Shown here piece after piece: positions 4,601 to 63,600 of a stretch of DNA of 64,000 nucleotides (position 1 is its first letter; each line of letters begins with the position of its first letter). Below the pieces are notes generated by a model that was given only the letters and a program-made list of their open reading frames with translations, was not told the origin of the DNA and did not search any database. The stretch spans positions 58,900,001-58,964,000 of the forward strand of contig NC_059436.1 in assembly GCF_021028975.2 (NCBI RefSeq), written 5' to 3'. The position numbers and the translations under genes were made by a program. This DNA is from Sphaerodactylus townsendi. Lineage: Eukaryota.

Positions 4601-5263
4601 CCACCTTCCTGCTACTGCCCCACCCTTTGCTGTGTCACATAAAACAGCTCCAAGGAACACAAATGGGTGCCTCAATTTAGAGAAAGCAACAGGGGGAAAA
4701 GTGAAGTGGAATCAATTGCTGTATCTAAAAGAGTGAATGCCAGAAAAGGAGACACCCCCCCCCCTCCTCTCCTAACAAGGCTGGAGGCAGCAAATGGAGA
4801 CAAAGAGTTCACTCTAGTGGGGGAATTAACATGTACTGGTGGCCACATATGACTCCCACCAACCAGCTGCTCCACAGGACATTTCCAATGGTGGAAATGC
4901 TGTGGCAGAGGGAGTCTTAAGCATTCTGGGTCTGGGTCTGAATGTGGCCCCCACACACCCTAGAAGCAAACACTGTCAGAATGTGTGATTCAAAAAACCA
5001 GGAACCTAGAAGCAAGACGTTAATGCAGCAAAGCAAAAAGACAGCAGGAAGGACAGAGTCCTTGTGAGTCAAGTGAAACGGAATAACAGTCGATAATGAG
5101 CTGCACAAGGATTTGGAAGGATGTGTAAATACAACAGCATGACACAGAGATGATTTGTTGTCGTCACTGGCTTCTTTTCTGACTGACTAAATCCAGGGGC
5201 TTCGAAGTGTGGGCATACTGGTATACATAAGGAAACCTTCATAATTTCATTTAATGACTCTGG

Positions 5264-6456
5264 GGGTGTTATCCCAAACTAGAATTGGCCTCAAAAGATG
5301 CTTAAAAGCCTTTTTTGAGTATTGTAAATTGAATGAATTGAAAGTCAACTACGCAAAATCAAAAATTGTAGTATTTTCGAAACGATGGCAACAATTGACA
5401 TGGAAAATCGATAATATTTATTTAGAGCACGTTAAGTCATTTAAATATCTTGGCTTAAATTTCTATTACAATTCCAGCTGGTCTTCACAAAGAACCTGCT
5501 CTATAACATCTGGGAAATGCCTAACTTCGGGTATTGTGCAATTCTATTATGGGAAGAGCCGTCAAACACTGGAGGCTGCTCTAAAGATCTTTCAAACCAA
5601 GGTAATACCGAAGATCCTTTATGGAATTCCCATATGGGTTGAAGCCTTTACTCCAGAAATTGAACAAGTTCAATCGTGTTTTCTGAGAAGAGTTATGGGC
5701 GATCCCAATAGTGTAACTTTCACTACATTATGCCTTGAATCTGGCTTATCCCTAATTGAGACCAAGGCCGGGATTACTACAATAAAGTACTGGCTTAAGA
5801 TTCATTTTAGAACAAAACAAGATGATATTATATCTTATCTTCTTAAAGATGCCCATATCTCACAATGGTCTAAAGTGATTATTCAAAAAATTGGAAATAT
5901 TGGAATTGACTTAATCGCATTACAAAAGTTTATTTTGATCCAAATTAGTGATAGGTTGAGAGATCATGAGAGACATTTCTTTTATTCGGCCAAGATCGCA
6001 GCCTGTTCACCATGAGCCTTGGGAATTTCCCCTAAGCATGGAGTTCCAGCCAATTATCTTGTTTCTACTCTATCTGTTGAACAGCGTTGGGCCTTTATGC
6101 TAGCCCGATTTAATAGTATTCCTTCAGCTATGACATCAGCTAGATACCAAAAAATTCCAAAACATCAAAGGTATTGTCGTTGTGGCTCTGTTGATTCGCT
6201 GTCCCATATTCTTATTGAATGCTGATGTACGATCATGCTTAATTCACCCTTTATTACTGTCAAAGAAAATACAAAATTCTTCATATGTTGTATGTTTTCT
6301 TTTACAGGATCATTCTTTTGATGTTACTTGTACAGTTGCTTCTTTTTTGGCTATCATTTTAAAACGATAGTTACTGTTTTACTTGACTATTGCTGTTGGT
6401 TTATATTTAATTATTTTACATTATGTTGTTGTTTTATGCTAATAAAAGGCACTGAC
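5264..6456 (+). mobile_element. 5'-truncated RTE-X-like LINE (3' RT and Cys/His C-terminus)
   Basis: ORFs 5254-6015 (FKYLG) and 6019-6225 (LARF...CRC...HILIEC); AATAAA plus (CTGA)n tail; TGACTCTGG duplicated at 5255 and 6457. Confidence 0.85.
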
Positions 6457-9824: not shown

Positions 9825-12666
9825 ATGGCACAATATATGGACAGTAAATTGAGGCTTCTAATTTTGACATCGGATAACTACGTGGATTGGGAAACCAGGA
9901 TCCATTTTGCACTGGATGCTGAAGGATTTTTGCAGGTCATCAACGAAGATCCACCAGATGAAGGAACAACCAAGGATAATTGAGCGATAAGAGAGAGATG
10001 GTACCGCAAAGATGCCAGGGCAAATGCAATAATTGTGCACTCTGTAAGTAGCAGCACCTTGTCTCATATTCGTGCATTTACTACAGTGAAAGGAATGCTT
10101 GAAAAGATAGCCCGAATCTGGGCTTCCGCCCATACCCTCAGCCAGCTGGGCTTCCGCCCATACCCTCAGATGCCAATTATATGATATGCGCTATGAAGAA
10201 GGTACATGTTTTCTAACATATTTGACTGCACTAGAAGAGTGCTTTACTAAACTTAAAAATTGCAGAGAAGAGCTAACTCAAGGGGCTAAGACTTCTGCTC
10301 TGTTTTTAACATTACCTACAAGCTTTAGAACCCTGGTTGCTGAGTTAGAGAGACAAAATGCATTGAGATGCGCTCAAGTGGTTGAACAATTGACCACAGA
10401 GATAAGCCTCTGTAAAATGCTTGCATTAAAGGAGAGGGGGTTGCGGGAGAAAACTTTGCCTTTAAAGACCACCTTTAATTCAAAAGATGCAACTACCAAG
10501 AGATGCAACTACCAAGCACCCTAGGCAGCCAAATTTGCATGAGGTTACCAGGGCAACGCAGCCAGTATTTATGATCCTTTGGCCAGCAGAGGTTCTTTCC
10601 AGAAAACAACCACTCCTAAGCAAATCAGATGCTATAAATGTGAAGAAAATGGCCACAAGGAGGCAGACTGTCCCAATAGCCAGACCCAGACGAAGGAAAA
10701 GTTTTTTAAACCTCAAAAGAGTGCACCGAGGTTTCCAGATAAGAATAAATCTCAAAGCAGTCATAATTTTTATATGGTGCAGACAAAAGAGAGCAGTCCT
10801 GGCTTCATTTTAGATAGTGTAGCCATCTCAAATCTAGGTAATTAAGTTTTTTCACAAAACTGCATGTAATTCCAGAGCAAAACATTTACATGGGAAATGG
10901 CACATTTTTGATTGCAAACCAGAAAGGAACTGGAATTATTCATTGCCGATTACCAGATCATTCTATTGTTGAATTTCTTTTGGAGAATGTCCTTTATGTG
11001 CCTGAAATGAGCAACTCTTTAATCTCTGTTTCTGACCTTGAAGACCAAGGCTGTAGACTTATTTTCAAAATGGCAATTGCTATGGCCGTTTCCGCACGGC
11101 CGCCATGCGCCCCCACGCCGCCAAGAGTTCTGCCGGCGTGGGGGCGCAAGCCCGTTCGCACGCAAGCGTGCGAGCAGGCCAAGCAGAGGCCCCCGCAGGA
11201 GAGGCGGCTCCGCACGGAGCCGCCTCTTCCCCCTTCTCCGCCCCACTCACGATGTCTCCGTCGTCGCCTGCTGGCCGTGGAAGCCCCGCCCATGCTGCCC
11301 TACGACCCCTGGAGGTCGGAGGACAGTGTGGGCGGGGCTTCCACAGCCAGCAGGCGACGACGGAGACATCGTGAGTGGGGCGGAGAAGGGAGACAGCGTC
11401 TTCCTGGCAGCGTGGTTCGCACCGCGCCGCCGGGAAGATGCTTCCCCCCCAACAACAACCCTTTAAAGGGTTGTTGTTTAGGGCGGCCTGACGCCACCCT
11501 GGGGGGGAGCGCAGTCAGGTCGGCGCTGCTGCAACGCAGCAGCGCCGCCTGTGCGAACGGCGGCCTGGGGGCGGCGTTTTTACTGCCCCCAGGCCGTCGT
11601 TTTTGGGCCGTGCGGAAATGGCCTATGTTACCAAGGATGATATTCTATGTTTAGTTGCTTCTAAGGCTAGAGGTCTGTATAATGTGAATGAATTTACAGA
11701 GAATGATGTCTTTTCAAATGAATCTTAGGATAAAGAGCCCCATGACCTTGAACTTGACACTTATAAAAATGATTATGAAATCAATGAAGCAAACCTTGTT
11801 AATTCATGTAAGCAAGACAGTTGCTCACTTCTCTGGCACCAACGCCTAGCTCATTGTTCTAATAATACAATTCAGAAAATAAAAAAAGGAGGGATTAACT
11901 AAAGATCTTGATTTTGTAACCTGTGAAACTAACCACTCTTGCGATTCACGTCTTCAAGCTAAAGCTGTGAACATACCATATCCTAAACAGAGTGAAAGGA
12001 AAATGAAGCAACCTCTGGATCTGGTCCATTCCGATATTTGTGGACCTTTTCCCGTGACTTTAGGTAAATTTAAATATTTTCTGACATTTACAGATGATTT
12101 TTCTAGATATGTGATAACATTTCTTTTGAGAGAAAGATCTGAGACTTTGGACAGGTTTAAAGACTATGTGAGAATGGTGCAGAACAAGTTCCAGCGAATT
12201 CTTCAAATCCTGCACAAGAATGGAGCAGGAGAATATGTCTCCAGAGCGATGCAAGATTTCTTGTGATCTGAGGGCATCCAATACCAGACTATGGTGGCAT
12301 ACTGCCTCCCCCAGAATGGTGTCTCAGAAAGAGCCAACCGGAGCCTCCTGGCTAAGGTGAGATGCATGCTAATTGCAGCACACCTCCCACAGCACTTCTG
12401 GGGAGAAGGCATCATGATAGCAACATATATACACAATAGGCTGTACACTACAACCACAGGTGTCACACTTTTTGAACTTTGGCAAGGCTACAAGTCATCA
12501 ATGACACATCTAAGAGTATTTGGGTGCACAGCTTTCGCATATGTCGCCAAAGAAAGATGAAAGAGCAAGTTTGAACCAAGAGCCAAGAAAGGAATCTTTG
12601 TAGGCTATTCATCTCAATCAAAAGCTTATAGAATTATGGATCCTGACACCAATTCAATAACCTATA
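9825..12666 (+). pseudogene. Copia gag, protease, GAG-pre-integrase and integrase (stops, frameshifts)
   Basis: CYKCEENGHKEADC knuckle; FILDS protease motif; LWHQRLAH; LDLVHSDICGP; PQNGVSERANR; HLRVFGC. Confidence 0.92.
11084..11623. mobile_element. CpG-rich MITE, PIF/Harbinger-like
   Basis: TIRs GGCCGTTTCCGCACGGCC / GGCCGTGCGGAAATGGCC; 3-bp TSD TAT; removing it restores copia NGNCYVTKDD. Confidence 0.85.
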
Positions 12667-14847
12667 TTAGGCATAATTTAAAAATAAAATAAATACAATA
12701 TATTAAAAGGGGGGAAACAGAATAAAACCTAATTAGGTTAACTAAGTTTTGTTCAGGGCCAAAGCAAGAAATTTTGCCACATCCTCGGTCCGTTTAGAAC
12801 AACGATCGTTGAGTATCTGAGACTTAACCCTGTTGGAAAGAGCAGGTTTTGAGTTTATATACGGCTCAATAAATTGTTTACATAAGTCAGTGTGACGGGG
12901 ACAACACAAAAGAGAAGCCAAGGGTCTTAACATAATGCAATATTTTGGAGTCCCAACTAGAATAGTGGGAATCGTTTAGACTGTGCCACATTAGGCTGTC
13001 TGGCTTCACTCTAAAAAATGGAGGCGAGTCCAGAAATGTAAGGTTACTATCCAAATGCAAGATGTTATTAGGTTTAGGCCCAGTTCAAGACATAAAGAAG
13101 CGTGCGCCACACAGTTGGGCAGGCCGAGAAGTGTTTGAAACAATTGTATCTAACACCTTTGTGGGGACACTAAACCATATTGGGGCTTCATAGAGTAATT
13201 AAGGAAGCAGTTTGGTGGAAAATATTTTGATAGCAGCCGGTAGATACTGACTTGATAGCAGTCATGTTGCGCTTAATAAGTAAGATGGTTTGCTCGATTT
13301 AGGCTGTCCATTTCAGATTGTATTGGAATGTCACACCTAGGTATCTAAAGGTGGGTACTGGTTTGACTACATTCCCGTTTATTTTCCATTGCTTTGGTTT
13401 CCAGGATATACCAAATACCATTATCTTGGTCTTAGTGTAGTTGATCATCAGAATGTTTCTTTGGCAGTAGTTGGAGAAGGCTTGCAAGAGATGGATCAAG
13501 CCAACACAGATCCGTGAGAGTATTATTGCGACATCAGCATACAATAAAACAGAGATCTTCTGGGAATTCAGGGTAGGCGGGTGACCATCACTATCTATAA
13601 GGAGAGGGGGAAGTCACTGATAAACAGATTGAATAAATAGGGGGCCAGTACACAGCCTTGTTTGATCCCTCTGCTCGTTGGAATTTCAGATGTGCCAATT
13701 GATTATAACGGACTTTACATTTAGTATCCGTGTATAATCTTCTAATTAATATGAGGAGGCGAGGGTCTATTTCCATAAGTGTCAGTTTCTGCCGGAGGAG
13801 GTCTCTTGTAACTGAATCAAATGGATTTTTCAGGTTGAGATCTACCCCGATGATGAATACTTCTCAGCAAGTACAGCAAGTACTGTACTTATCACTAGAC
13901 AGTGATCATAGGTAGAGTGACCCTTGACAAAACCAATTTGGGTAGGTTCGAGGAAAGGCGATGCCCATATTATAAGGGTTTTTTTGGAGATGAGTGGTGT
14001 ATAATTTGCCAATGATTGATGTAAGGCAGATGGGCTGATAGTTGGATGGTAATGTCGGATTGTCCTTCTTGAAGATGGACATAATTGTTGCTGCAGTCTA
14101 ATCTTCAGGTATGATGCTGAATTTATTGATCATGGTGAACAAATTCGCCAACCAATAGTCTCGAAAGTTGGTGAGTATTTCAGGAAGTATCCCATCGGGA
14201 CCAGAGGCCTTCCCTCTTTTCAGGTGTATCATAAGATCATTTATCTCATTAGGTGCCACAGGTGGCCAGTCTGGAAGCTCATATTTTGGTAAATCTATAA
14301 TTGCAGGTGAATAATGTGTTGTATCAAAGAAAAGGTGGTAAAAGTGTTTCCACCAGGCATCTGCTCTAATAGTGGAATTAAGGTTGTTAGGATTTGATTG
14401 GGAAACATCAAAAACCAAACGCCAGGATAATTTAGAATCTCTGGCTTTTGTGGCTTGGTTAGTATGTTCCAATTTTGGTTGTGACGTTTTTTGAGAATTA
14501 TCGTCTGCTGAAGTTGTTTGCATCCAGCAAAGTATGATTCGCGAGTTTCCTGCATTGGGTTTTTTAAAAAATAGATGAAATAGATATCGAAGATGCCTTT
14601 TCAATAGATAGCATTCCTGGTCAAACCAAGAATCGCATGCAAAATAAGGTGTAAACTGGATATGTTTAGTTTTCGGCTGAATGGAGGTAACAATAGCTGT
14701 GACATGCTCCTGATAACAGCAGGTTAAGGTTTTTGGTATGTTTGCCACAGCTGCAGACTGGAAAAGCTCATCAAAAGTTCCTATATTTATTAGGTGTGTT
14801 AGTTCCATCCTCACTGACCATTTAGGTGGTATTACCTGGAGAGGATC
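12667..14847 (-). mobile_element. 5'-truncated RTE-X-like LINE inside the copia integrase C-terminus
   Basis: Minus ORFs with WFDQEC, KASGPDG, YAD, FRYLG; copia reads ...SITY / SRSVHFEEN across it. Confidence 0.88.
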
Positions 14848-14939
14848 AGCAGATCTGTTCATTTTGAGGAAAATGAGAGAGCTATGTCTTCAGAGGGGGC
14901 CCACCATGACTAGACCCTGCCCCATGATGACTGGCTCAA

Positions 14940-17900
14940 TATCAGGAGGCCTGTTATTATGGGGATTTTGCTATTGCTGCTTTCTGTATGCTGGGGATGG
15001 AGGAATGGGTTAATTGCATTTCTAACTGACTTTCAACTGTCTTCTGTATGATGTTATACTGTACCAGGTGCTGCTCAAGGTCAGTGCCTGGCCGTCTCTA
15101 CCGTTATCTCTTTCACAGTTCCTTTTGGGTGCGCTTCCCCAGGATGGGGGGTGCAGTCTGCTTTAACTACTGGGTTTTGTGTGGGCAAACCTCAGTTCTG
15201 GCATGACCAGAGAAGATCCTCAATACTCAATAAACTACTGTTCTTACACATGAGTTTGTTTCAGTTTTTGGGATTCTGACATTATGCCAGAACTTCTCTT
15301 AGGTTGAATTCCATGCTGCCGTGCATTGCTGGAATTTCACCTTCTACTTTTGCAACTTTTATCAAAGACTTTTCTTGCCAGTATGATCTCTTCAGAGACC
15401 CAGCCAGGGGGTGCATCCGCGGCTGCAGACCATGGGTGCCCCATTCCTGAAGACTTAACAGGAACTTCGGATTCAGCCTCTGACCCAGCAGAGGGGCCTC
15501 GGATCCTGCTTGGAAGTGCAGCAGGCAGAGAAGCCCCTACCCCAGGTGGATTTTTGGACTCCATTCACCCGTTCATGACTGCCCCGCTAGATGGCTTGGA
15601 GGGAGTTACCGTGTGTCGTCGTCGGGGTCTGGACTATCGAGAATCTCAGCCTTTGGGTTTGGGCAGTGCGACGTGGGCTACAGCACCTTTGGCTGGAAAT
15701 GTGTAGTTGCCAATCCGTCCATCGGAAGGGGCTGATTAATCGGAAGCTGAAGCCTGGCGGATGCTCCAAGTGTTGGAGGAGGCCTGGGATTCAGAGCGTG
15801 AGGAGTACCACTGGGCCCTGCACCAGATGGAACGGGATATAGAGCACCTGCAAGCCACCCTTGCCCAGGCTCACCAAGTAGCCCCTGCTCCCGGAGCTGG
15901 AGTAGCCATAACGCCAGCTGCCCCAGCACCAGCTCAGCCTGCACCAGCACTGGCACCAGCTCTGCCTGTCCAAACGGGACCCACCCCAGCGCCAGTACCC
16001 GCTCAGCCTGCCCAGCCAGTTCCGGTTCCAGCTCCAGTTCCTGCTTGAGCACCGGTACCAGCCCAGCCTGTCCAACCAGGACCCGCCCCAGCACCAGTAC
16101 CCATTCAACCTGCTCAACTGGTGCTGGTACCGGCCCCAGCTCTGGCTCCAGGACCAGCTCCAGGTCCAGCTCAGCCTGTTTACCCCAGACCCACCCCGGC
16201 TCCGATTCCAGTACCAGGCCAGCTGCCTCTCCAGCCAGGCCCCCCTTGCTGCCAGCTGCACCTGCTCCATTACCGGTCCCGCCTCTGATGCCACTGTTTG
16301 TACCACCAGGATGGGGAGTTCCGGGTGGAGTGTTGCCAAACTTTGCACCCTATGGGGTAGCTCCCCCTCCGCTCATGCCCAGGATCCGGCTGACTACTCG
16401 CTTTGATGGGACTCAGGACTTGCTCCCGGCTTTCCTGGTTCAGGTCAATGCCCACATGTTGCAGTATGGGCGGCAGTACCTGAACAATTTTGAGCGTGTT
16501 TGTGAGGTAGGGTCAATGCTAGATGGCCCTGCAGCCAATTGGTACATGAACCTGTTTCAACGTCAAGCTGCAGAACTGCGCAACTTCCAGGATTTTATGA
16601 TGGCCCTACGCTGCTGCTTCGAGAGCCCATTTGTGGGCGAGCAAACAAAACAGGAACTCATGGAGATGCGATAGGGCAAAACCCCTTTTGCTGAGTTTGT
16701 TGAAAACTTCCGTACCGTGGCCAGTAAGATCCAGGATTGGGATGATCCTGTGAAAGTGTTCGTTTTCAAGAAAACCCTAAACCCGGACTTGTTAAACTGG
16801 GCTCTTGTTCAGGGCAGCCCGCAGACCCTGAAGGAGTGGATTGTACTCGCGGGTACTGCAGACACTAGAATGTGTGAAGCAGCCACGTTGGGGGTTCAAG
16901 TCGGATGATCCCCACTTGCCCAGCTGCGTCGGGCGGTGCCCCAAGTTCCAAGCCTACACGCCCTGCTCCTTTGAAGTGCCAGATCTCGCCGGAAGAAAAC
17001 GCTCGCCGCCATATGAATCTCTGCCTGTATTGTGGCGGGGAGGGCCATATTGCTGCGTTTTGTCCCACCAAGCGCACCCCCACTCCAGCTACTTCCACCC
17101 TGGCAGCCAAGCCGGCCAAGCCGACCAAACTGCCGCCAAGAGGGGGTGCCCGTGCAGCAGCTCCCCACGCCACTGGGGGGAACAGCCGATTCCTTGGGAG
17201 CCTCCCAAGCCAGAGCGGGTGAGTGAAGCCATAATTCTGCCCCTTGTTCTGACCAACAGGCCCGGATGCCCAAAGCTAGTGGTCCAAGCCCTTGTAGATG
17301 CCCGAAGCTAGTGGTCCAAGCCCTTGCTGCTCTCACTGTTTAATACATCCCCGTTTGGTGGAAGCACTTGGGCTGCAGCCCATTTTGTTGAAGGAGACTA
17401 TCCGGTTTGACCAAATGAATGGCAGTCCAATGGGCGGCGGTTCCATCACATCTCGCACCCCAAAAATCCTGGCCAATTGTGAGGGGCATTGGGAATGCCG
17501 TAGCTTCATAATTGCCCCCATCTCTCAGTACCCCGTGATATTGGGACTATCTTGGCTTGTGGATCATGACCCATTAGTGAAATGGTCTCAACGTGTTTTG
17601 ACTTTTACCAATCCTCCTTGTGGAGACCACATGAGCCCTGATCCACCCGAACACTTGCTACATCCGCCTGAGGGACTCGCTCGCGCTCTGTCCCAACCTT
17701 CAGTTAACCCTGAAATTCCCTCACCGTACCGGGACTTATGGCAAGTGTTCGAAGAGACTGAGTGTGATTCCTTGCCGCCCCATCGTGATACTGACTGTAA
17801 AATCAAACTGGTCCCTGGAGCTACACTACCCAAGGGACAGCTATATTCCATGAGTCCTGCTGAGGATACCGAGTTGCGGGCGTTCCTGGATAAAAATTTG

Positions 17901-20900
17901 GTGCGCGGGTTCATTCGGAGGGCGCGCAGCGGTTTTGCAGCCCCGGTTCTGTTTGTGAAGAAGAAAGATGGTTCCCTGTGGCTGTGTACTGACTACAGGG
18001 GTTTGAACGCTGTTTCGGCCTCTAACAAATACCCGTTACTCCTGATCAAGGATTTACTTGCAAATCTTGGCTCGGGACATATTTTTACCAAGTTGGACTT
18101 ACATGAAGCCTATTACTGGATGCGTATGGCTGAGGGCCATGAACATTTGACTGCTTTTAATACTCGCCATGGACAGTATGAATACTTAATCATGCCTTTT
18201 GGGCTTTCTGGAGCCCCCGCCGTGTTTCAGAGTCTGATCAATGGGATTTTGGATGACGTCGTTCAAAGGACTTGTTGTTTATTTGGATGATGTTTTGATT
18301 TACTCCCATGACGAAGAATCACATATTGCTTTGGTCCACGAAGTGTTATCCCAGTTACTGGCGAATTCCCTGTTTGTGAAACTCTCTAAGTGCAAATTTC
18401 ACAAGCCTCAGTTGGATTTTTTGGGCTACCGCATTTCTGCTGCTGGTTTGGAAATGGAGCCCACTAAGGTTGCTGATGTGCAGGCATGGCCCCCTCCTCA
18501 GACTCCTAAGCAACTCCAGTCCTTTCTGGGCTTTGCCAATTTTTACTGTGACTTTATCCCTCACTTTTCCTCCTTGGCTCTCCCTTTGACTGATCTTTTG
18601 CGTACCAAGGAGAAAGGTCCTGCAGCTTCCTATCCTGGTGCTCCTTTGGTTTGGAGCTCTGCTTGCCAGTCTGTGTTTGATTCCCTGAAAGCTGCCTTCA
18701 CTTCTGAACCAGTTCTCGCCCAACCTGACCCTTCCTTGCCGTTCGTGGTACACGTTGATGCTTCAGACAAGGCTTTGGGTGCTGCCCTACTTCAGCAGGG
18801 TTCGGATGGTCGGCTCCACCCCTGGGCGTATCTCTCCTGCAAGTTTTCAGGTGCTGAACTTAATTGGACTGTTGGTGATAAAGAAACCTGTGCTATCAAG
18901 GTCGCTCTTACTGTGTGGAGGCATTTCTTAGAGGGAGCGGAGCACCCCTTTGAGGTCTGGACTGATCATAAAAACCTGGCTGGACTCTGCTCCCCAGGCC
19001 GGCTTTCCGTTAAAAAAATCCACTGGGGGGACTTTTTCACGCTCTTTCGTTTTACAGTTCATTTTTTCCAGGGCAAAACCAACTGTTTGGCAGATGCCCA
19101 GCCCTGCTTGCCAGAGGGGGGGAGCGCAAAGTGGATCCTTTGCTTTCCCGCACTATTCTCTCCCCCACCCACTTGGGCTTGGCTATTACCTGATCGCAGG
19201 CGAAGGCGGAGCCCCCGCCATCTGTATCTCCTCCTGGACCCCTTCTCTCCACCTTCTTGAAGGCGGGAAGTCCCCGGTGCCTCTTGCAGAGGGAGGCGAT
19301 GGATTAGTATTACGTGACGGCATTTGGTGTCATGGCTCGCTGTTGTATGTCCCGCCCCATCTGCGGTCTCAAATCCTCCACCAGGGGCATGATTCCAAGT
19401 CGGCTGGTCACTTTGGCTTTGTAAAAACTTTGCATTTGCTTCGCAGACAATTTTGGTGGAAGACCATGCATAAGGACATTGACGCTTATATCAAGGGCTG
19501 CCCTATCTGTGCTATGGCAAAAACCATTCCAGGCAAGCCCCAAGGATTATTGCAGGACATTGAGCTGCCCAGTGGGCCCTGGCAGGTGATCTCCATGGAT
19601 TTTATTACGGACTTGCCTTTGAGTCATGGCAAAATGGTGATCTGGACTGTAGTTGATTTGTTCTCTAAGCAGGCTCATATTGTACCTCCATCCCCACTGC
19701 TCAGAAACTGGCTGAACTGTTTATGCTGCATATTTACAGGTTGCATTCTGCCCCCAGGAAAATAATCACGGAAAGTGCGCCTAAAAGTGAGTGTAAGGAG
19801 ATAACAGAAGATGGGCAAGTAACGGCCTTGACACCACCTGGTATTACTCCACATTCTACAGCAACTGAGAAAAGACAGTTAGAAATGCAGTTAACCCCTA
19901 CCAACCTCCTCCCAGTGCAATGAAACAGCAGCATAAGCAAAGTCCCAAACCAGGCCTCCTGACACAGGGGTTTGCAATTTGTCTCCCGCTTTTGGAGGGC
20001 CTTTATGAAGTTGTTGGGCATTGAACAGGGGGTGTCCTTGGCCTACCACCCCAATCTGATGGGGAGTCTGAAAGGTCCAATCAGACTTTGGAACAGTACC
20101 TGAGATGTTATGTGAACTATCAGCAAGATAACTGGGTTGACCTGTTGCCCTACATGGAATATGCTTACAATAACTCAGTTCATAGTGGTACAGGCAAGAC
20201 TCCTTTTGAAGTGGTCCATGGTCATTCGGTTCCCCCTCTGCCCATGCTCCAGTCAGGAGACGCCCCTGGACCCGAGGTTAAGGAATGGATGCAATCCATT
20301 GCTGATCAGTGGCCCCCTATCTTGAAAGCACTTCAGGAAGCTAGAGACTCATACAAGTGGCAAGCCAGTAAATGCAGGCGTGACTTCCCTCTAGTGGTCT
20401 ACCTCTCCACCAAGAATCTCCGGGACATACATCAGCCCTCGAAACTGAGTGTGAAGTATATTGGGCCCTTTAAGATTGTCAGAGTGATAAATAAAGTGAC
20501 TGCTGAACTGGAATTGCCTAATGCTTTGCATAAAATACACCCTGTGTTTCATTGCAACCTTCTGAAGAAGACATGTTCCCCGGATGTCTGGCATTGAGAG
20601 AAGAAGACTCCTCCTCCGGTCCGGATTGATGGGACTAAACATTATGAACTTTCTGACATTCTTGATTCTCGCATCTATCGAAACCGCTTGCAGTATTCGG
20701 TCTCTTGGAAAGGTTGTTTACCTGGGCAGAATCAGTGGATATTTGCCAAGGATGTTAAAGCCCCCCGCCTCGTTAAAGCTTTTCATCAAAACTGTCCAAG
20801 CAAGCCGGGGGGAGGGCCCTAGAGGGAGTGGAATGTCAGGACGCCTGTTATGGGGATTTTGCTATTGCTGCTTTCTGTATGCTGGGGGTGGAGGAATGGG

Positions 20901-21171
20901 TTAATTGCATTTTAACTGACTTTCAACTGTCTTCTGTATGATGTTATACTGTACCAGGTGCTGCTCAAGGTCAGTGCCTGGCCGTCTCTACTGTTATCTC
21001 TTTCACAGTTCCTTTTGGGTGCGCTTTCCCAGGATGGGGGGTGCAGTCCACTTTAACTACTGGGTTTTGTGTGGGCAAACCTCAGTTCTGGCATGACCAG
21101 CGAAGAACCTCAATACTCAATAAACTACTGTTCTTATACATGAGTTTGTTTCAGTTTTGGGGATTTTGACA
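14940..21171 (+). mobile_element. Gypsy A: full-length Tf1/sushi-like chromovirus, decayed
   Basis: LTRs 14940-15281 and 20834-21171; PPT AGAGGGAGTGGAA; near-TSD CTCAA/CTCAT; gag-PR-RT-RH-IN-chromodomain. Confidence 0.95.
15382..20822 (+). pseudogene. Gypsy A gag-pol
   Basis: Pro/Ala-rich gag (15890-16290), RFDGTQ capsid, CLYCGGEGHIAAFC, YLDD, WTDHKNL, ISMDFITDLP, HPVFH, chromodomain YELSDILDSR...WKG...QW. Confidence 0.92.
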
Positions 21172-23050
21172 CTCATGTACCCTGTCACCAATGATGCACA
21201 GAGAGATGACAGTGCAGATCTAAATGTCAACCAAGATTTTGATGACAACCAAGAGATCCGAGATGAATCTGACAAACCAGATGAGATACCAGACCCTGCA
21301 GATGCTGAACCAATGTACTTACCAGCAACAGAGGGGGATGCAGCCCCAAGGTGAGACGATCTGAATGCACGAACAGAGGAGTGCCTCCCTTGAGACTGTC
21401 TTACCTTGCAAGAATGGCAGCAGATGAACCGAAGTCATGGGAAGACATATCCTACTTTCCACCACAGAAAGCCCAAAGGTGGAAACAGGCTGCTCTTGAT
21501 GAGATGAATTCTTTGGAAAAGAATAAGACTTGGATTTTAACGAAATTTCCAGAAGGAAGAAAGGCAATTGGCTGTAAATGGGTCTTTAAACTGAAACATG
21601 ATGCAGATGGCAAAGTGCAACACTATAAAGCTAGATTGGTTGCTAAAGGCTACTCTCAGAAATATGGAGAAGACTATGATGAGACTTTTGCACCTGTTGT
21701 CAAGCACACCACAGTCAGAACTTTACTAAGTGTTGCAGCAAGCAAGAAGATGCATGTTTAACACACAGATGTCAAGACTGCATTTTTGCACGGTGATTTG
21801 GATGAGATAGTTTTTATGCAACAACCTCCAGGATTCCAAATAAGAGGCAAAGACAATTACATCTGCCAGCTGCAGAGTTCTCTTTATGGTTTAAAACAGG
21901 CTGTGAGATCTTGGAATACAAAATTGAACCATATGCTAATTGAAGCAAAATTCCAACGAAGTGAGGCTGACCCATGCCTATATGTCAAGAACAAAAATGG
22001 AAAATGGACTTACATTCTAGCCCCATGGTGGCGAACCTATAGCACTCCAGATGTTCATGGACTACAATTCCCATCAGCCCCTGCCAGCATGGCCAAATGG
22101 CCATGCTGGCAGGGGCTGATGGGAATTGTAGTTCATGAACATCTGGAGTGCCATAGGTTCGCCACCTAGTCTATGTTGATGACTTATTCCTATGAGGACC
22201 CAGATGACTGCAAAATATTGATACAACACCTGAGCGAACAAGTTGAAACCAACAGCTAGGAAACATTGCTCACTACCTAGGAATTCAAATAGAAAGAGAG
22301 GAAGATGGCAGTTTCCTTCTCAATCAACAACAGAAGATTACAGACTTAATCAACTTACTGAATCTACAGGATGCATGTCCAACTCCTATACCAATGCAAA
22401 TGAACTACATAAAGCAAGATGATCCAACAGAACTGCTTTCTGACAACACCAAATATAGAGAAGCTTTAGGCAAATTCCTATACATAAGTACACTAACCCA
22501 ACCAGATATAAGTACAGCAGTCGGCTTACTATGCAGAAAGACTGCTTCACCAACAGTTAAAGATTGGAATGCACTCAGCTACCAAAGATGCTACAGGTAC
22601 ACTAATAGCTTATGTTGATGCAGACTGGGGTGGAGACCTAACTGAGAGAAAATCCACCAGTGCTCAGATCATTTTCTTTGGAAATGGTCCCATTAGTTGG
22701 TCAAGCACCAAACAAGCAATCATAGCAGCGTCCACCACAGAAGCAGAATATGTGTCTGCTGCACAAGTTTGTTATGAGTTACAATGGCTATGCCAACTAC
22801 TAAAAGATTTAGGCATAGACACACCACTCCCTATACCAGTTTATGAAGACAACCAAAGTTGCATTCAACTATCTAAACAAGAAGATGTGAAGAAATGCAC
22901 CAAGCACATTGATGTGAAGTACCACATTGTGAGAAAGCTGCAACAGGATGGCATCATTCAACTGATCTACTGCCACACCACCGAGATGCTAAACTCCTAC
23001 CGAAACCAGCTTTTGAGAACCTTAGAATGAAGATAAACCTGACTACCTGA
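21172..23050 (+). pseudogene. Copia RT and RNase H
   Basis: KAIGCKWVFKLK, YKARLVAKGYSQ, SLYGLKQA, YILVYVDD, YVDADWGG, STTEAEY, YEDNQ, KHIDVKYH. Confidence 0.93.
22021..22166. mobile_element. Fully palindromic hAT-type MITE inserted just before the copia YVDD
   Basis: GGTGGCGAACC...GGTTCGCCACC foldback; CTAG on both sides. Confidence 0.85.
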
Positions 23051-29649: not shown

Positions 29650-32600
29650 AAATAATTGGCTATTCTCCCAAGTATAGAAGGATTATTACTGTTTAACAAT
29701 TTTGGGATTGATATTTTGGGGGGCACATTTCCCATTATCCAATTTGGTAAGTACTAAAAGAAGCTTCCCTCTGGGGATTATATTTTTGGGCAATAAGTAA
29801 CATAAAATGTGGTCCAATCGTTTCCACATAACTTAATGGTGGGACAGAAAGGAGCATAGTCCTATGTGATAGAGGCCGCTTCTCAATCCCGGCTCTTTAC
29901 AAAAGAGGCAGGAGGGAAAAAACATTGCATCCTGGTCTCGAGTCAGTACCCTAAAAGCCGTTGTTTAGAATCCGGGATTTGTAGCATTAAGTATTTGTGT
30001 GCCATCGTGCCAGGCTCAGTGGTTTATACCAAAGTACAATGGGGAGCATGTTGTTGTTGCACGATTAAGGATTGCTAGATGTTGATATCTCCCTGATCCT
30101 TCATATAATAGTCTAAAGTTTCGGTAATTAGGTTATATATTTGTTGGGGGTCCTTCAATACCAACTCCTCTAATGAGAAACCCAATGAATTGAGTTTACC
30201 ATTGATTATATTCCACAACTCTAAGCTTTGGACCTCAACTAAAGCCCTATGCAGTAGGCTTCCGTGTTGTAGCTTGAAAAGCATATCTTTATCCAAAACT
30301 TTAAAGGGTAAGTAGCCCAGAAGCCCTGGTAGTTAATAAGGTGCATGCCCGCTACCAAGCATAGCACCCCATAGTAAGGCCACACAATGTGGGACTCCAA
30401 ATATTTTGTAAGAGAAATGCTGATTGTACCTTTTTCAACCGCTTGTTGGACCAAAGCGGTAATCCAGATGGAACCTCGGTAAAGGAGTTGTTTGCAAGAC
30501 TTTTTTTGGCCTGGAAGACCTTTTGAAAATAGCAGAGGGAATATGGCTTTTGGCCTTTGGAGTAGAAAAAAAGTTATTCCACTGCATTTATTGTGACCAG
30601 TATCCCTTTCCACCGCTGGCATTTCTATGAGTGTACCCATGTTGGTGTTGAATTCCCCAAGATGGATCCTCTAGGTATTTCGTTATGATTTAACCTGTTC
30701 TATGTCCTTTCCGTGCCTATAGACCATTTATGGATTTTAGTAGTCTATTCAGAAAAGACCATTGATTTTTTAGGTTTTTCGCAAGTGGTATTGATAATAT
30801 TTGCTAAAGAAGCTGTTAGTTTGTGCAATTCTCGCGCACATTTACATTTGACCATAAGAAGGTTTGAGAATCCAGCTCTAGTTCTTGAGAGTAGAATTGC
30901 ATCATCCTGTATAAAGCAGGATGGGAGTTGGGATGTTACTCTTAGACTGGACAACATGTGTTTATTTGCTGTTAAAGTTGGAGCCAAATCATTTAGAAAC
31001 AGATTAAAACAACGTGAGGGCCAAAATACACTTCTTGTTTTTTTACACCGGGTTGTTGTTAAAATTTTTGGAGTGAGTTATTCTCCTCTTGTGCACACCT
31101 TCACCTGGGAATAAGATTTTATAGGTGTAATAGTCTTATCAAAGAGAGTAGTCTATTTTCTTAGCAATTCCCCAGTAAGGGTTCAAGTTTTTTAAGCCAT
31201 AGAGCTTGTTTCTTTTCAATGCAGCACAGATGAGAGATCGAACGCCCCCTGTAAATCAAGAAAGGCAATATATACAGTTTGGAGCGACCTCTTCCTGATG
31301 TCATTTAGCTCAGGAAAAAGGAATTAGAATCAAGGAGTAAACAATGATGTTCAACGTAGCAAATTACCCTTTCCTAAAACCAATGTGTTCTAAGCTACCT
31401 AATGACATTTTATTCTGCTCAATCCACTTTTGTAGGCGATTGAGCAGGAGACTTTGCATACAATTTGCACCATACCTGCTACTGATAACAGGCTAATTGG
31501 CTCTCTATAAGGAAGGTGTAGCGCAGTGGTAACCGTTAGGATCCTACCTTTCTTATAAATTGGAACAATAACAGCCATTGGTCCTCAAATCCCCAGCATT
31601 TACTGCCACGTGTTAGTGATCTCGGTGAAAGAGAGTTTTTTGCTAATACTCAGGTGACCCACTTCAGTCCACATGATTCTCTTTAAATCTCGGAAATTTC
31701 TGGGGGGGGAGCTGGTCAGGTCCAGATGATTTATAAGGTTTTAGATGTCTAATAAGATTTTTTTATTTCTAACTCCGTGACTGGTGGCCAAAAGGGTTCA
31801 CTGATCAAATAGTCAATGTCAGGAGGTGAAGTTTCCGCAGACAGTCCCTGGAAATATTGACTAAAATAATCAAACCATTGACTTGGACGTATAGTGTTAC
31901 AGAGGGAAGAGTGACTGCTCGTTCTTTTGGCTACTATCTGGCAAAATTTCCTGGTATTCTTATCTCTCGCTGCTCGTATAAGAGCATCCCATTCATCTTG
32001 TACATCCCATTCATCTTTAAGTGATTGTGTTGGAGACGATGTGCTAATGCAGATTTTAAAGCAAAATAGTCAGTTGGAAGATTGACTTCATTGGTTGTAG
32101 TATGTTCAGAGTAGATATTTCTTAGCTGGACCTTTATTCCTCAACATTCATCATCAAATATTGCTTTCTTATGTCCGTCCTGATATTGTATATTGCTTGT
32201 CTTTTGTCCCTCCATATAATCAGCTATGTGTCTCACCAGATTGTCATATTTCTCTATGAGTACAGAAGGTGACTCGGAAGTTAAAATTTGCTGTTTGAGT
32301 TCTTTCATTTTTGGCATGGCAAAAAAAGTGTTAAACTTCAATCGAAAGGATTTGTTCCAACGTACTATTGGTAAAGTGCAGTTGGTTTCTGTATTCTCCA
32401 GTATGTCAGGAGCCTCAGAGAGAAGTGTTAATTTGAGTGGTAAATGATCACTCCATGTTTGATGACTAATTTGATAGTTGACAATATATTGAAAAATGGG
32501 CTGGGAAACCAGAATATGATCTGGAGAACTACAACCACGAGATGAAAGATACGTGTATTCTCCTGCGTTTTGAAATTTGGTTAATCCTGTGAGATTGATT

Positions 32601-55336: not shown

Positions 55337-55453
55337 CTACCAGCAGGGGAAAAGCAAATAGAAAAACTTCAGTGTACACATTTGGTTTAAAAGCACCACT
55401 GGAATATATCAATTCTAAACAAAAGATCTAAAAGGCAAGCTTGCTTGACATAG

Positions 55454-57693: not shown

Positions 57694-60600
57694 TGTCAGA
57701 TCCTCAATGATTGAAACACCACCTTGTTGAGAACAGAGGTTTATTCATACATCCAGAGGACAGCTTGGAAAAGCCAGAATTGACTTTTCCGTGTGCAAAC
57801 AGCAGTAATATGATATGAGGAACCTCCCCCCCATGAGAATAGACAATGAAGTATGTAGGCAGTTTGATAAGAGCAAAAGTCAGTTGGAGATGACCTTGGC
57901 CAGCACCTGGTGGTGAGAGCAGCTAGAAACAATACACAGAGTAACATTCCCATCCCCCCAAAGCCCAAAGTACTAAGCAGCCCCAGCACCCACTAGGCAT
58001 CCTGACATTCCACTCCCTCTGGGGCCCCCCTCCCAGTTTGCTTGGACAGAAACAATGAAAGTCTTGAATGAGCCGTGGAGCCTTGATGTTTTCAACATTG
58101 ACCCATTCATCATGTCCAGGTAGCCAGCTTTTCCAGGACACCAAATATTGCAAGCGGTTACGATAGATGTAAGAGTTGTGAATAGCTGAGATCTCATGAT
58201 GCTCCTCCCCATCAATCAGAACAGGAAGAGTTGTAACAGATTCTGGATGCCATTGGTCCAGTGAGGGTGCCTTCTTCAGCAAGCTGCAATGAAACACAGG
58301 GTGGATTTTATGCAAAGCCTTAGGCAAATCTAGTTCAGCAGTAACTCCATTGATTATTTTAAGAACTTTATAAGGTCCAATGTATCTAAGCTGCAGTTTG
58401 GTTGGCTTGTGGATATCACAGATGTTCTTTGTAGACAGGTACACCGTATCTCCAATCACCAGGGGAGCTCACGCCTATGTTTGTCAGCCTGCCGTTTGTA
58501 AGCAATTTGAATTTTTTGTAAAGCTTTTTGGATGGACGGCCAACTGTCTGCCAAAGCCCGAATACATTCTTTGAGCTCAGGAGGGAAGGCCGCTCCATGG
58601 GACAAGAAAGGAAGATGTTTCACGGAACGTCCAGACACCACTTCAAAAGGGGTCTTACCAGTGCTACTGTGAACTGCATAATTATAGGCATATTCAGCAA
58701 ATGGCAGTAACTCCACCGAATTATTCTGTTGGTAATTAACACAGCAACGCAAAAATTGTGCCAATGTCTGATTAGATTGTTCAGATTCGCCATCTGATTG
58801 AGGATGATATGGAGAGGAGAGGGCCTGGTCAATATTCAATAGTTGCAAAAAGGTCCTCCAGAACTTGGAAATGAATTGGCTCCCCTTGTCGGAGACGATC
58901 CTATCAGGGGCGGAATGCAGACGGTAAATATGCTGAACGAACAACTTAGCCAGTTTCTGAGCATTTGGGATGGAATCACAGGGAATGAAATGTGCCTGCT
59001 TGGCGAATAAGTCCACTACCACCCAAATAACCATTTTGCCATTACTAAGAGGCAGATCAGTAATAAAGTCCATTGCAATCACTTTCCAAGGACCATCGGG
59101 AGACTCTAACGGTTGCAGCAAACCCGGGGTTTTACCTGGGACTCCTTTTGCCATAGTGCAAACAGGACAGCCTTTGATATAGAGGTCAATGTCTCAGCAC
59201 ATAGACCACCACCAAACTGCTGGCAAAGAGATGCAGCGTTTTCACAAAACCAAAATGACCCGCTGATTTAGAGTCATAACTCATACAGATGATCTCTGCT
59301 CGTAAAGAAGGCAGGACATATAGCAAATCACCCTTACACCATAGTCCATCCCGTAAAAGCAAAGAACTGTCTCCTTCCTCATCCGGGACAACAGAATGGC
59401 CAGCCTCCAAAAACGTAGACAGAAGGGAAGAGGGAGGTTGCAGAGCAGTCAGTACCTGGGGCTTGGTTTGGGAACGAGTCACAGCCCTGCCCAGGTGGGC
59501 AGGTGAAAGGGTCATCCGAGGAACTGGTACAGTGACATCAGAGTCCACCCCCTCAGGCAAGCGGGAAAGAGCATCAGCCAATTTATTGGATTAGCTCAGG
59601 AAAAATGCACCGTAAAGCAGAAGCGATTGAAAAAATCTGCCCAATGGATTTGCTTGGCTGAGAGCCAACCCGGAGTGCAATGGGAGGCGAGATTCTTATG
59701 ATCGGTCCAGACCTGAAAAGGATGCTCCGCCCCTCCAAAAAATGGCGCCAGACCGAAAGAGCGGTTTTGATAGCACAAGTTTCTTTATCGCCAACAGTCC
59801 AATTTAATTCCGGGCCAGTAAACTTTTTGGACAACTAAGCACAAGGGTAGTGGCGGCCGTCAGAGCCTTGCTGCAGTAGGGCAGCTCCAAGAGCCTGGTT
59901 CAAAGCATCAACATGCACCACAAATGGCTGGGAGGGATCAGGGTGCCGTAGGATGCGTTTGGTTGTAAAAGCAGCTTTGAGAGCATCAATAGCCTGCTGG
60001 CATGTGGGAGACCAAGTCAAAGGCGTGTTGGGATGGGCAGCAGCCGAACCTTTACCCTTGCTCCACAATAGATCGGTGATTGGCAGAGCCAGTTCAGCAA
60101 AATTGGGAATAAAGTCATGATAAAAATTAGCAAAGCCCAAAAAGGATTGGAGCTGTTTCCAGGTACAGGGAGAGGGCCAGTTCACCACACCAGTCACCTT
60201 AGCGGGGTCCATTTCCAAACCCTCAACAGAGACCCAATAGCCCAGAAAATCCAGATGTGTCTGGTGAAGGTGATCATGTGGATCGGTGGTCTCAGGAGGT
60301 AATTCAGTCAGGTTACTTGATCAAGTTTGCTCACCTACCCCCACAACGCTTCCGGGCATTCCCCATCAACGCCAACCTGAACAAAGCACAAAGAACTCAA
60401 TGAGCTATTCTGCATCTACTCAGCATAAGGGCGATAGAGCCAGTGCCAGAATCGGAGAGATCCTTGGGGGTCTTCTCTCACTTTTTTACGGTACCAAAGC
60501 GCAGCGGGGATTGGAGGGCAATACTCAACCTGAAGTTCATCAATCGCCATCTAAAACTTCATCGTTTCAGGATGGAAACACTTTGCTTCATCATAGAGAA

Positions 60601-63600
60601 TCTCCGTCCAGGCGACTATACGACCTCCCTAGACCTGACCGAGGCATACCTCCATATACCGATACATCCATCCCACAGGAAGTACCTCCGGTTCGCCATA
60701 GGCCATCAACAGTTCCAATTCAGAACTCCAGTAATTAAACTCTAGAACACCCTGGGGGCTCCGGATAACCCGAATGGCATAACCAAATATTCATACTGGC
60801 CACAGTGGGTGTTAAAAGCAGTTAAATGCTCATAGCCTTCAGCTATACGGACCCAGTAATATGTTTCCCTTAAGTCAAGGTTGGTGAAAATCAGTCCCTT
60901 GCCAAGGTTGGCCAGTAACTCCTTGATGAGTGGCAAAGGATATTTATTGGTAGTGGGAACAGCATTCAATTTACGATAATCAGTACAAAGTCTCAAAGAC
61001 CCATCTTTTTTCTTGACAAACAGAATGGGTGCTGCAAAGCTACTGCAAGTTTTCTGAATGAAATTGCGGGCAAGGTTTTTACTTTAAAAATCCTGAAGAG
61101 CAGCATCCTCTGTAGGGCTCAATGGATACAAGCGTCCCTTGGGCAATTTACATCTGGGGACCAATTCAATTTTGCAGTCGGTATCTCTATGAGGAGGTAG
61201 AGCATCACATTCCGTTTCCTCAAACACCTGCCACAAATCTTGGTAGGGCGGGGGAGGCTCGATTTCCATAACTAAGTGGACCAGAAAAGTCTGGAGGGTG
61301 TAATGACATATGGCCACCACAGGGGCGTTTCGTAAAAGTTACAACATGGCCCACCCACTGAATTTGTGGATTGTGGTCTATGAGCCAAGATATGCCAAGT
61401 ATCACAGGATAATCAGAAATATTTGACAAAGTTTTGTGTAATGGGATTGATTGTAATTCCAAGCTATGAACAACGCTGGGGTGCATTAAACAGTGGCAGC
61501 AGTCCACCAGAGCGTGAATCTTTACTTTAGGCTCTTGTGGACCCTTGGAGATGAGCAAAGGGAGGATGATAGGTTCACTCACCCTTTCCGAGATATCCTT
61601 GGTTGATTCTTGAGTGGCTTTTGCATAACTTTTGTAATTCTCATCAGATGAATTGTAATTCAGCTCTATCGGTAGAGCGAGGCGCGCTGTTCCTTTCTTC
61701 AGATTGGGTCCCTTGGCCGATGCTTCGCTCTTGCCAGGCGCAGATGGCTTCACTGGCTGCTTTTCTGGGCAAGCAGCAGCTAGGTGACCGATCCCTCCAC
61801 AATACAGGCACAATCCAAGATGACGACGATGCACATTCTCCAATTCGTGAGTTTCAGGCGAGGAGTGGATTCCCTGGGGGTACCGACCCTGGGAGAACCC
61901 GCTGGCTTACCAGAATGGGCTTTGGCTTCATTCATTCGTGCATCTGACATGCCAGCCAGCATGATCCATTCCATCAAAGTAACCGGACTGTCCGATTGCA
62001 AAGCCCATTTCAACAGTCCAGGGTGCAGGGCCTGCTTGAAGGCATACATTTTGACAGGATCATCCCAATCAGGAATTTTACTGGCCACAGTGCGAAAGTT
62101 TTCCACAAACTCCATGAAAGGAGTATTCCCTGACGTATCTGCATCAGCTCTTTCCTCCCCTACAAAGGGACTCTCAAAACGTCGGTGGAGAGCCATCATG
62201 AAGTCTGGAAAATTACGTAATTCACCAGCCCCGTGCTGGAACAGGCTCACATACCATTCAGCTACGGCCTCATCCAAGGCAGATCCCACTTCATAAACCT
62301 GCTCAGTATCATGTTGATACTGCTGGTCGTATTGTTGCTTGTGGACACTGACTTGCACCAAAAAGGCTGGGAGTTGCTTCTGGGAGCCATCGTAGCGCAC
62401 ATTCAACCTTGCCCAAGGTGCTATCGGTTGTGAATACCCAAATGGAGGTGCCATCGGATACCCGAAGGAAGGCTGGAGTGGGTACAGGTGTGGCAGTGAT
62501 GGCTGGAACTGAGGGGGTACAGGTGGAACAGGAATCAAGGGCGGTGCCAGCAATGGCTATACAGGTGGGGTAGGTATCACGGGCAGAGCCAGCTGCCTCA
62601 GCACCCCCGCTGGCTGAGCCTCGGCATCCCCGCTGGCTGAGCAGGAATCAGAGGTGGTGAAGGTACCTGTGGAGCAGGTGTCCCAGGCGGAGCAGGTTGT
62701 CCCTCTCCAACCCCTTGCTGTCCATCAACTTCTTGCCCCGGCACCCTCACTGGCATGCCACCCCTACCTTGCACCTCATTGACTGGAGGCTGAGGCTGCC
62801 CAGGGGGATTTTGTTGCATTTGCGCCAGCCGGGCTTCGTCCTGCACTTTATGTAGTTCAGCACGGGTCTGCCCTATGGTCATATGCATCGCATCCATATC
62901 ACGATGCATCTGGTTCAAGGCATGTTCGTACTGCATCCCGCTTCTAGCTCCTCCCCAAGCTGCTTCTTTAAGTAGCACGGAACAGTCAGCCTACATCTCT
63001 GCTTCTTCCCATCTGGTAGGGACTTGCAGTGGGATCCCCTCACGACAGTGGATCCCCCAGCAAGGGAGGCTGTAACCCATGTTCAGACCTCGTCTAAATC
63101 CAGCAAAGAATCAGTAGGTACTGTAGCAGTCTCTTTCCGACGGACCGTAACTCCCACTTGGAGCAGAGCAGACAGGAAACGTGAAACTCCCGCAGAAGCA
63201 CCTGCCACATGCTGCAAAGGGGATGAAGTGGCTTGTCCAACCCTAGGTAGGGGTCACAGGTGGCGAGTCCTGACTTATCCAACCGGAGGGGAGTCGACCC
63301 TGTAGAAGCAGCTGTAGTAGAATCCAAAGTTGTTCTGGACTCCCCCTCCTCGTTAAGGCCAGACACAGTCTCCACGGCGTGAGGATCAAAAGGGGGCCCA
63401 GACAGTCCTTGAAGAAAAGCAACTAAATATCTAACATGTGCAACTTCAGCATTAGACTTAAGCATGAAGTGCCACACGATGAGAATTCTGGCTTAATGTC
63501 CAATCCTCAATGATTGAAACAACATCTTTTAGAGATCAGAGGTTTATTCATACATCCAGAGGACAGCTTGGAAAAGCCACAATTGACTTTTCCACGAGCA

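What the first reader, a model, noticed from the sequence alone, without database searches (positions are those of the whole stretch)
15194..15294. Gypsy A has a self-priming PBS: 11-nt LTR/PBS complement instead of a tRNA site
Seen: no TGG tRNA-type PBS. ATGCCAGAACT (15284-15294) is the exact reverse complement of LTR AGTTCTGGCAT (15194-15204), which lies about 30 nt after a TATA-like TTTAAC. The intervening U5 can fold as an imperfect hairpin (ATCCTCAA...TAAACT / AGTTTG...TTGGGAT). Known: fission yeast Tf1 primes reverse transcription with the first 11 nt of its own RNA, and this has been proposed for the vertebrate Tf1/sushi group. Prediction: transcription starts at about 15194.
Basis: partly seen in the sequence, partly recalled or inferred. 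Interest (0 to 1): 0.7.

Follow-up and report, generated by a model that had tools for sequence, protein, structure and literature searches.

The report
Self-priming vertebrate retrotransposon leaves primer fossils
This dead jumping gene has, where a host tRNA would normally dock, 11 letters that pair exactly with a spot inside its own end-repeat, and its relatives across the genome keep that pairing with many different letters, so the group likely starts copying itself with the first 11 letters of its own RNA, as fission-yeast Tf1 does and as was already proposed for this group in vertebrates.

Summary
Confirmed. ATGCCAGAACT (15284-15294) lies 2 nt after the 5' LTR of a degenerate chromodomain Ty3/gypsy element (14940-21171). 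It is the exact complement of LTR 15194-15204, and there is no TGG site. Of 43 LTR-bounded elements scored in this genome, 28 have a match of at least 11 nt, all starting 2 nt after the LTR (controls 3 of 860), with 14 different 11-mers. The match starts at an initiator-like A about 30 nt after an AT-rich box. In 83 close copies, primer and PBS covary at two columns (83/83, 81/83). Self-priming is the defining, published feature of the Tf1/sushi group, so this is a new member of a known kind. The scan also noted similar signatures in other genomes. Added here: 10 copies carry PBS complements that run 6-40 nt on into U3, and the mirror change is never seen (27 vs 0 at the first base). This likely records the primer end being copied during reverse transcription. 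A near-constant C after the PBS may be a copied cap. The start site was not measured: the RNA-seq laid was uninformative. The third 'pretzel' duplex was not found.

The parts
14940..15281 (+). 5' LTR of element A (TATCAG...CTGACA; the 3' copy starts TGTCAG)
   Evidence: 325 identities, 12 mismatches, 4 gaps against the 3' LTR
14935..14939 (+). left target-site duplication CTCAA (4/5 match to the right copy)
   Evidence: sequence
15162..15169 (+). TATA-like AT-rich box, about 30 nt before the primer
15192..15198 (+). initiator-like TCAGTTC (YYANWYY, motif recalled); predicted +1 at 15194
   Evidence: inference
15194..15204 (+). predicted 11-nt self-primer at the start of R
15216..15274 (+). R-U5 imperfect hairpin, with AATAAA at 15229-15234
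   Evidence: predicted fold; weak on its own, z -1.15
15282..15283 (+). 2-nt spacer TT between LTR end and PBS
   Evidence: offset 2 in 28 of 28 matches
15284..15294 (+). PBS, exact complement of 15194-15204
15802..20819 (+). broken gag-pol: Gag/Ty3 capsid, RT, RNase H, integrase H2C2, SH3_Tf2-1, chromodomain (20598-20819), split by stops and frameshifts
   Evidence: Pfam; translation
20821..20833 (+). polypurine tract plus 2-nt spacer before the 3' LTR
   Evidence: sequence
20834..21171 (+). 3' LTR, with the same 11-mer at 21084-21094 and no PBS after it
21172..21176 (+). right target-site duplication CTCAT
63484..63494 (-). PBS of related element B (57694-63779, minus strand): AAGCCAGAATT, 2 nt after its 5' LTR
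57771..57781 (-). element B primer site AATTCTGGCTT in its 3' LTR (5' LTR copy at 63574-63584 has one mismatch); two compensatory changes against element A

Best explanation
This is a broken chromodomain Ty3/gypsy retrotransposon, likely of the vertebrate Tf1/sushi group, whose primer-binding site is the exact complement of 11 nt in its own LTR, so its RNA likely primes its own reverse transcription. Inferred steps: Pol II starts at the A at 15194. The first 11 nt fold onto the PBS and close an R-U5 hairpin. By analogy with Tf1, RNase H cuts after nt 11 to free a 3'-OH. Minus-strand DNA starts across the TT spacer. Plus-strand DNA then runs through the spacer and copies the primer, so the PBS is likely rewritten from the primer each cycle, which would keep the two in step as both drift. 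Shown here: the geometry, the genome-wide covariation, the promoter-like context and the one-way extended PBSs.
For: Exact 11-bp match, 1/5000 shuffles. 28 of 43 scored elements have a match of at least 11 nt against 3 of 860 control segments; all 28 start at offset 2; 14 distinct 11-mers, 9 of 11 columns vary. In 83 close copies, primer position 10 / PBS is A-T in 31 and T-A in 52 (83/83); position 2 is A-T 16, G-C 65, 2 mismatched. Initiator match 23/26, AT-rich box at -30/-31 in 25/26. The one scored element with a TGG site (L121) has only a 5-nt match. The complement runs on into U3 by about 6-40 nt in 9 of 83 copies plus L064 (38 nt exact); L064 and L167 have both LTRs and exact target-site duplications. 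PBS+1 is G (complement of the usual -1 C) in 27 of 83, while the mirror change (G at -1) is seen in 0 of 83. Tf1 cleavage after nt 11, and copying of the PBS into the cDNA 3' end, are published (passages).
Against: No RNA 5' end was seen: two lays of 3 RNA runs gave no start at the primer. 15 of 43 scored elements fall below 11 nt; by eye most have a single mismatch, a deletion starting in the PBS or a mis-set LTR end, but this was checked by alignment only for L065, L067 and L088. The third (leader) duplex of the Tf1 'pretzel' is not supported: only 2 of 25 reach the 5% tail. The inner hairpin is weak. Copies are related, so counts overstate independent events. Only 24 tRNA sequences of 11 anticodon types were compared. 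The tree had no named sushi-ichi or outgroup.
Confidence: 0.9

Rival explanations
1. A host tRNA (whole or fragment) primes, and the LTR match is incidental or only folds the leader.
For: The post-LTR sequence matches the 3' end of tRNA-Lys(UUU) at 8 of 12 positions, and tRNA-Val/Ala internally at 7 nt. Some families have TGG at offset 3 (ttGTGGCAGG, ttATGGCAGG). The tRNA set tested is incomplete.
Against: The Lys match fails at the CCA end itself (TTA against TGG). The PBS changes in step with the LTR over 14 variants. Copies whose PBS continues as U3 complement cannot come from a tRNA.
Confidence: 0.04
2. Self-priming is right, but the extended PBSs come from plus-strand strong-stop DNA folding back on its own R copy and being extended into U3, not from longer RNA primers.
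For: It is also one-way and needs only the inverted repeat plus a DNA 3' end at the PBS. L064's extension matches its own 5' LTR 38/38. Four long extensions stop at about -33 to -40, short of a G-rich tract.
Against: L168's roughly 40-nt extension matches U3 of a sibling subfamily (L141), a stretch its own LTR lacks, which fits a parental RNA template; a later deletion in that LTR is not excluded.
Confidence: 0.4
3. The extensions, and part of the perfect pairing, arise in the chromosome by template switching at a quasi-palindrome after insertion.
For: Primer and PBS form an 11-bp inverted repeat 79 nt apart; L170 shows that the loop between the repeats can invert.
Against: Chromosomal switching should act both ways, but G at PBS+1 is seen in 27 of 83 and G at -1 in 0 of 83; by eye, none of 13 hits of a partial mirror pattern was a 5' LTR with leader copied into U3. 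3' LTRs, which have no PBS beside them, carry the matching 11-mer too.
Confidence: 0.06

Closest known systems
Tf1/Tf2 of Schizosaccharomyces pombe
   Same: 11-nt primer at the RNA 5' end complementary to the PBS (PMC7175516 passage); chromodomain integrase; PBS copied into the cDNA 3' end (PMC11042837 passage).
   Different: Here a fixed 2-nt spacer separates LTR and PBS; in Tf1 the PBS motif appears directly in the downstream flank (my reading of the passage). The leader duplex of the pretzel was not found here. Nothing here is shown biochemically.
Vertebrate Tf1/sushi group (GyDB V-clade: sushi-ichi, Amn elements; Butler et al. 2001)
   Same: Vertebrate chromovirus with an LTR-complementary PBS; self-priming is given as the group's common feature. 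LTR ends TGTCAG..CTGACA fit the Sushi motifs TGTYANR/CNTNACA (PMC3601003 passage).
   Different: Butler 2001 itself was not read, only passages citing it. The genome-wide covariation, the constant C after the PBS and the U3-extended PBSs were not found in my 8 literature searches.
Tj1, Tosmo1-3, Tcry1 (fission yeasts) and the Tcn1 clade (fungi, mosses)
   Same: Self-priming inferred from LTR/PBS complementarity.
   Different: Other hosts; the fission-yeast elements are reported to form the three-duplex pretzel.
Retroviral PBS inheritance (HIV, MLV) versus Ty1/Ty3
   Same: Retroviruses copy the primer into the plus-strand PBS (PMC7472051 passage), as inferred here.
   Different: That review says Ty1 and Ty3 strictly inherit the PBS instead; here the copied primer would be the element's own RNA, not a tRNA.

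Membership tests
Tf1/sushi chromoviruses | Ty3/gypsy domain order (Gag, RT, RNase H, integrase) between LTRs | tested here: met
   Pfam; LTRs
Tf1/sushi chromoviruses | chromodomain at the integrase C-terminus | tested here: met
   PF00385, 33.4 bits over a 25.1 cut-off, at 20598-20819, behind a stop codon
Tf1/sushi chromoviruses | PBS complementary (10 nt or more, within 0-5 nt of the LTR) to the LTR and not to a tRNA 3' end | tested here: met
   criterion from PMC6317226 methods passage; tRNA set partial
Tf1/sushi chromoviruses | the complementary stretch is the transcript's 5' end | tested here: inconclusive
   initiator and TATA-like context fit; RNA-seq showed no start
Tf1/sushi chromoviruses | three-duplex 'pretzel' (reported for Tf1, Tf2 and several members, not stated for all) | tested here: inconclusive
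   central duplex yes; inner hairpin weak; leader duplex not above controls in a crude duplex test
Tf1/sushi chromoviruses | monophyly with Tf1 and sushi-ichi in RT/IN trees | tested here: inconclusive
   nearest database proteins are mostly squamate and fish gypsy polyproteins, many with chromodomains; tree of 49 rows had no named reference or outgroup
Tf1/sushi chromoviruses | RNase H cleavage after nt 11 and priming by the released RNA | not testable with these tools
   biochemical; shown for Tf1 only, passage
tRNA-primed Ty3/gypsy elements | PBS starting TGG within a few nt of the LTR, complementary to a tRNA 3' end | tested here: not met
   no TGG in the first 8 nt; best 3'-end match 8/12 with the CCA end unpaired

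The most novel reading that the evidence does not exclude
In these vertebrate elements the PBS is rewritten from the capped RNA 5' end every cycle, so the genome holds a fossil 5'-RACE record. The 11-bp match marks +1. The near-constant C after it (25 of 28 elements; 52 of 83 close copies) is the copied cap G. G-then-C copies (14 of 83) are starts at -1. The 6-40-nt U3-extended PBSs are upstream-started or read-through primers cut at the normal site. This would be in-genome evidence for self-priming in vertebrates and a way to read start sites of extinct elements from DNA alone.
Probability: 0.35. Interest if true: 0.62.

Novelty: new member of a known kind. Interest (0 to 1): 0.4.

Why it matters
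Self-priming has been shown at the bench for yeast Tf1; for vertebrate relatives the passages I read describe it as inferred or implicated. This genome supplies natural compensatory changes over 14 primer variants and aberrant copies that appear to have caught the primer end being copied, which strengthens the vertebrate case. It also gives a single-base start-site prediction for each family, testable by CAGE. These elements would escape silencing aimed at tRNA-type PBSs (inference), and annotation tools that look for TGG can mislabel the families with TGG at offset 3.

Tried and rejected
RNA evidence: no RNA holder was listed. Three RNA-seq runs with the same species label were laid on 14800-16000 and on L137's LTR-PBS. 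Reads were mostly 85-99% alike, lay mainly on the LTR on both strands, and gave no begin-pile at the primer, so they are uninformative on the start site. Leader duplex of the pretzel: not above control segments in 23 of 25 elements. tRNA comparison: limited to 24 sequences, best 7 nt contiguous. Half-tRNA-Met priming (TTATG resembles the anticodon-loop complement, recalled) was considered: the one Met tRNA found was not among the top six matches, and many families read TTAAG or TTGTG. Tree: L121 and L126 gave no hit, so there was no outgroup; it cannot test monophyly. Mirror-extension pattern covers only part of the leaders. L170 first looked like a full-U3 foldback; it is an extension of about 33 nt plus an inversion of the loop. 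PMC1563812 and PMC6388632 were not held, so whether the cap-copy idea or extended PBSs are in the primary Tf1 papers or in Butler 2001 is unchecked. No supplements were read.

Full report
Observation. The window stretch 15194-15204 (AGTTCTGGCAT) and 15284-15294 (ATGCCAGAACT) are exact reverse complements with no Watson-Crick extension. The second lies 2 nt (TT) after the end of a 5' LTR. The LTRs are 14940-15281 and 20834-21171, about 96% alike, with a 4/5 target-site duplication and a purine tract before the 3' LTR. One of 5000 base shuffles of the LTR gave a match this long. 15194-15300 folds at -35.8 kcal/mol, z = -5.06. TTTAAC begins 32 nt upstream.

The element. Between the LTRs lie broken Gag, RT, RNase H, integrase and SH3_Tf2-1 frames and a chromodomain behind a stop codon. 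The RT-RNase H piece finds 515 longer proteins; high among the 120 listed are gypsy polyproteins of geckos, anoles and snakes (up to 64% identity), then many of fish, many with chromodomains. The host is therefore likely a squamate (inference) and the element a vertebrate chromovirus. A tree of 49 integrase pieces had no named reference or outgroup and does not test clade membership.

Within the family. In 30 best-matching copies (ranked by similarity, so biased), 20 keep all 11 Watson-Crick pairs; the rest have one mismatch or G-U pair. Element B in this window (57694-63779, minus strand) has AATTCTGGCTT / AAGCCAGAATT: two changes, each matched on the other side. Pattern searches for LTR end + TT + four PBS variants gave 94 hits. 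83 had a primer site with at most 2 mismatches in the searched span; 11 were dropped (5 look like chance hits; 3 have lost that part of the LTR; 3 have the site at another distance). In the 83, primer position 10 pairs in 83 (A-T 31, T-A 52) and position 2 in 81 (A-T 16, G-C 65).

Across families. I fetched 80 regions: 60 of 150 SH3_Tf2-1 hits and 20 of 150 H2C2 hits, picked for differing scores. 49 had an LTR pair; 8 were dropped because the LTR end could not be set; 41 plus the two window elements were scored. 28 of 43 have a match of at least 11 nt (26 exactly 11) against 3 of 860 control segments, one of which is L064's own extension. All 28 start 2 nt after the LTR. They hold 14 distinct 11-mers with 9 of 11 columns variable. 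In the 26 exact cases the match starts at an A after a pyrimidine, fits YYANWYY in 23, and has its AT-richest 6-mer at -30 or -31 in 25 (motif recalled). L121, with a TGG site, has a 5-nt match only. 15 of 43 fall short; three checked have deletions that begin in the PBS. Related copies are not independent events.

tRNA rival. Among 24 host tRNA-like sequences of 11 anticodon types, the best contiguous match is 7 nt, and the best 3'-end match is 8 of 12 to tRNA-Lys(UUU) with the CCA end unpaired. The set is incomplete, but no fixed tRNA explains a PBS that follows the LTR through 14 variants.

Extended PBSs. In some copies the complement does not stop at the 11-mer but runs on as the reverse complement of U3: L064 38 nt exact, then resuming 212 nt into the leader relative to a sibling, with both LTRs and an exact GCTAC duplication; L147 37 nt, L170 about 33, L168 about 40 (against a sibling's U3), L247 19, L160 16, L151/L161/L169 8 (probably one event), L167 6 with both LTRs and an exact CAGAC duplication. 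L147, L160, L168 and L247 run into non-element DNA with no 3' LTR found within about 9.5 kb. The base after the PBS is C 52, G 27, A 2, T 2 in the 83; the base before the primer is C 75, T 6, A 2, G 0. So U3 is copied to behind the PBS and the leader is never copied into U3. This one-way pattern points to reverse transcription, not chromosomal template switching. Two routes remain: a longer RNA primer copied by the plus strand, or foldback of plus-strand DNA that ends in the primer copy. L168 leans to the first; I cannot separate them. The C after the PBS (25 of 28 across families) and the G-then-C copies (14 of 83) would fit a copied cap G, but Tf1 RT also adds non-templated bases (passage), and simple inheritance is not excluded.

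Mechanism. Shown: geometry, covariation, promoter-like context, one-way extensions. Inferred: start at 15194, folding, cleavage after nt 11 by RNase H, priming across TT, copying of the primer into the PBS. Not found: the leader duplex of the Tf1 pretzel (2 of 25 in the 5% tail) and any RNA start.

Literature. I saw search listings and keyword passages of bioRxiv 2022.12.06.519325, PMC6317226, PMC3601003, PMC7175516, PMC4600332, PMC5341516, PMC5371799, PMC11042837 and PMC7472051; no whole texts or supplements. They state that self-priming is the common feature of the Tf1/sushi group, shown in Tf1 and implicated from fungi to vertebrates, and that about half of Tf1 cDNA keeps a copied PBS at its 3' end. 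[quoted passage not shown] Those 8 searches turned up no report of U3-extended PBSs or a cap-derived C, but the primary papers were not available. Earlier scan notes list similar self-priming signatures in other genomes and none in this one.

Verdict. Real, well supported, and a new member of a known kind. Interest 0.4, raised by the covariation and the fossil extensions.

Noticed in passing
L064 (G000:C9:3683980-3693979), about 2916-2967: PBS complement runs 38 nt on into U3, including an inverted TATA box, in a copy with both LTRs and an exact target-site duplication.
   Followed up: yes
L155 (G000:C9, near 2684268, minus): LTR, TT, PBS, 3-nt extension, then a jump to a U5-end-like stretch and an apparent CTACA duplication: a mini-insertion that looks like an aberrant strand transfer.
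   Followed up: partly
L170 (G000:C16, near 3219466): The R-U5 loop between primer and extended PBS appears inverted relative to a full U3.
   Followed up: partly
L065, L067, L088: Internal deletions of about 0.5-1.1 kb begin inside the PBS, after 5-9 nt.
   Followed up: partly
L097-L099, L112, L134, L137, L070, L138: Self-complementary PBSs that contain TGG at offset 3 and could be mis-called as tRNA sites.
   Followed up: partly
window 43482-43822 and about 45050-45336: Two further LTRs of the A and B families (11-mers at 43735 and 45249), each after an integrase fragment and with no PBS behind them.
   Followed up: partly
window 32141-34852 (-), 48175-50213 (+), 5245-6015 (+), 10842-11654 (+): LINE-type endonuclease and RT fragments and a Pol beta-barrel (copia-like) fragment; the window is a dense pile of retroelements.
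   Followed up: no
window 55453-56291: Nested long inverted repeats (178-201 nt arms, 95-97% complementary).
   Followed up: no
L121, L126: Divergent gypsy elements with TGG-type sites after the LTR in the same genome; useful tRNA-primed controls.
   Followed up: partly
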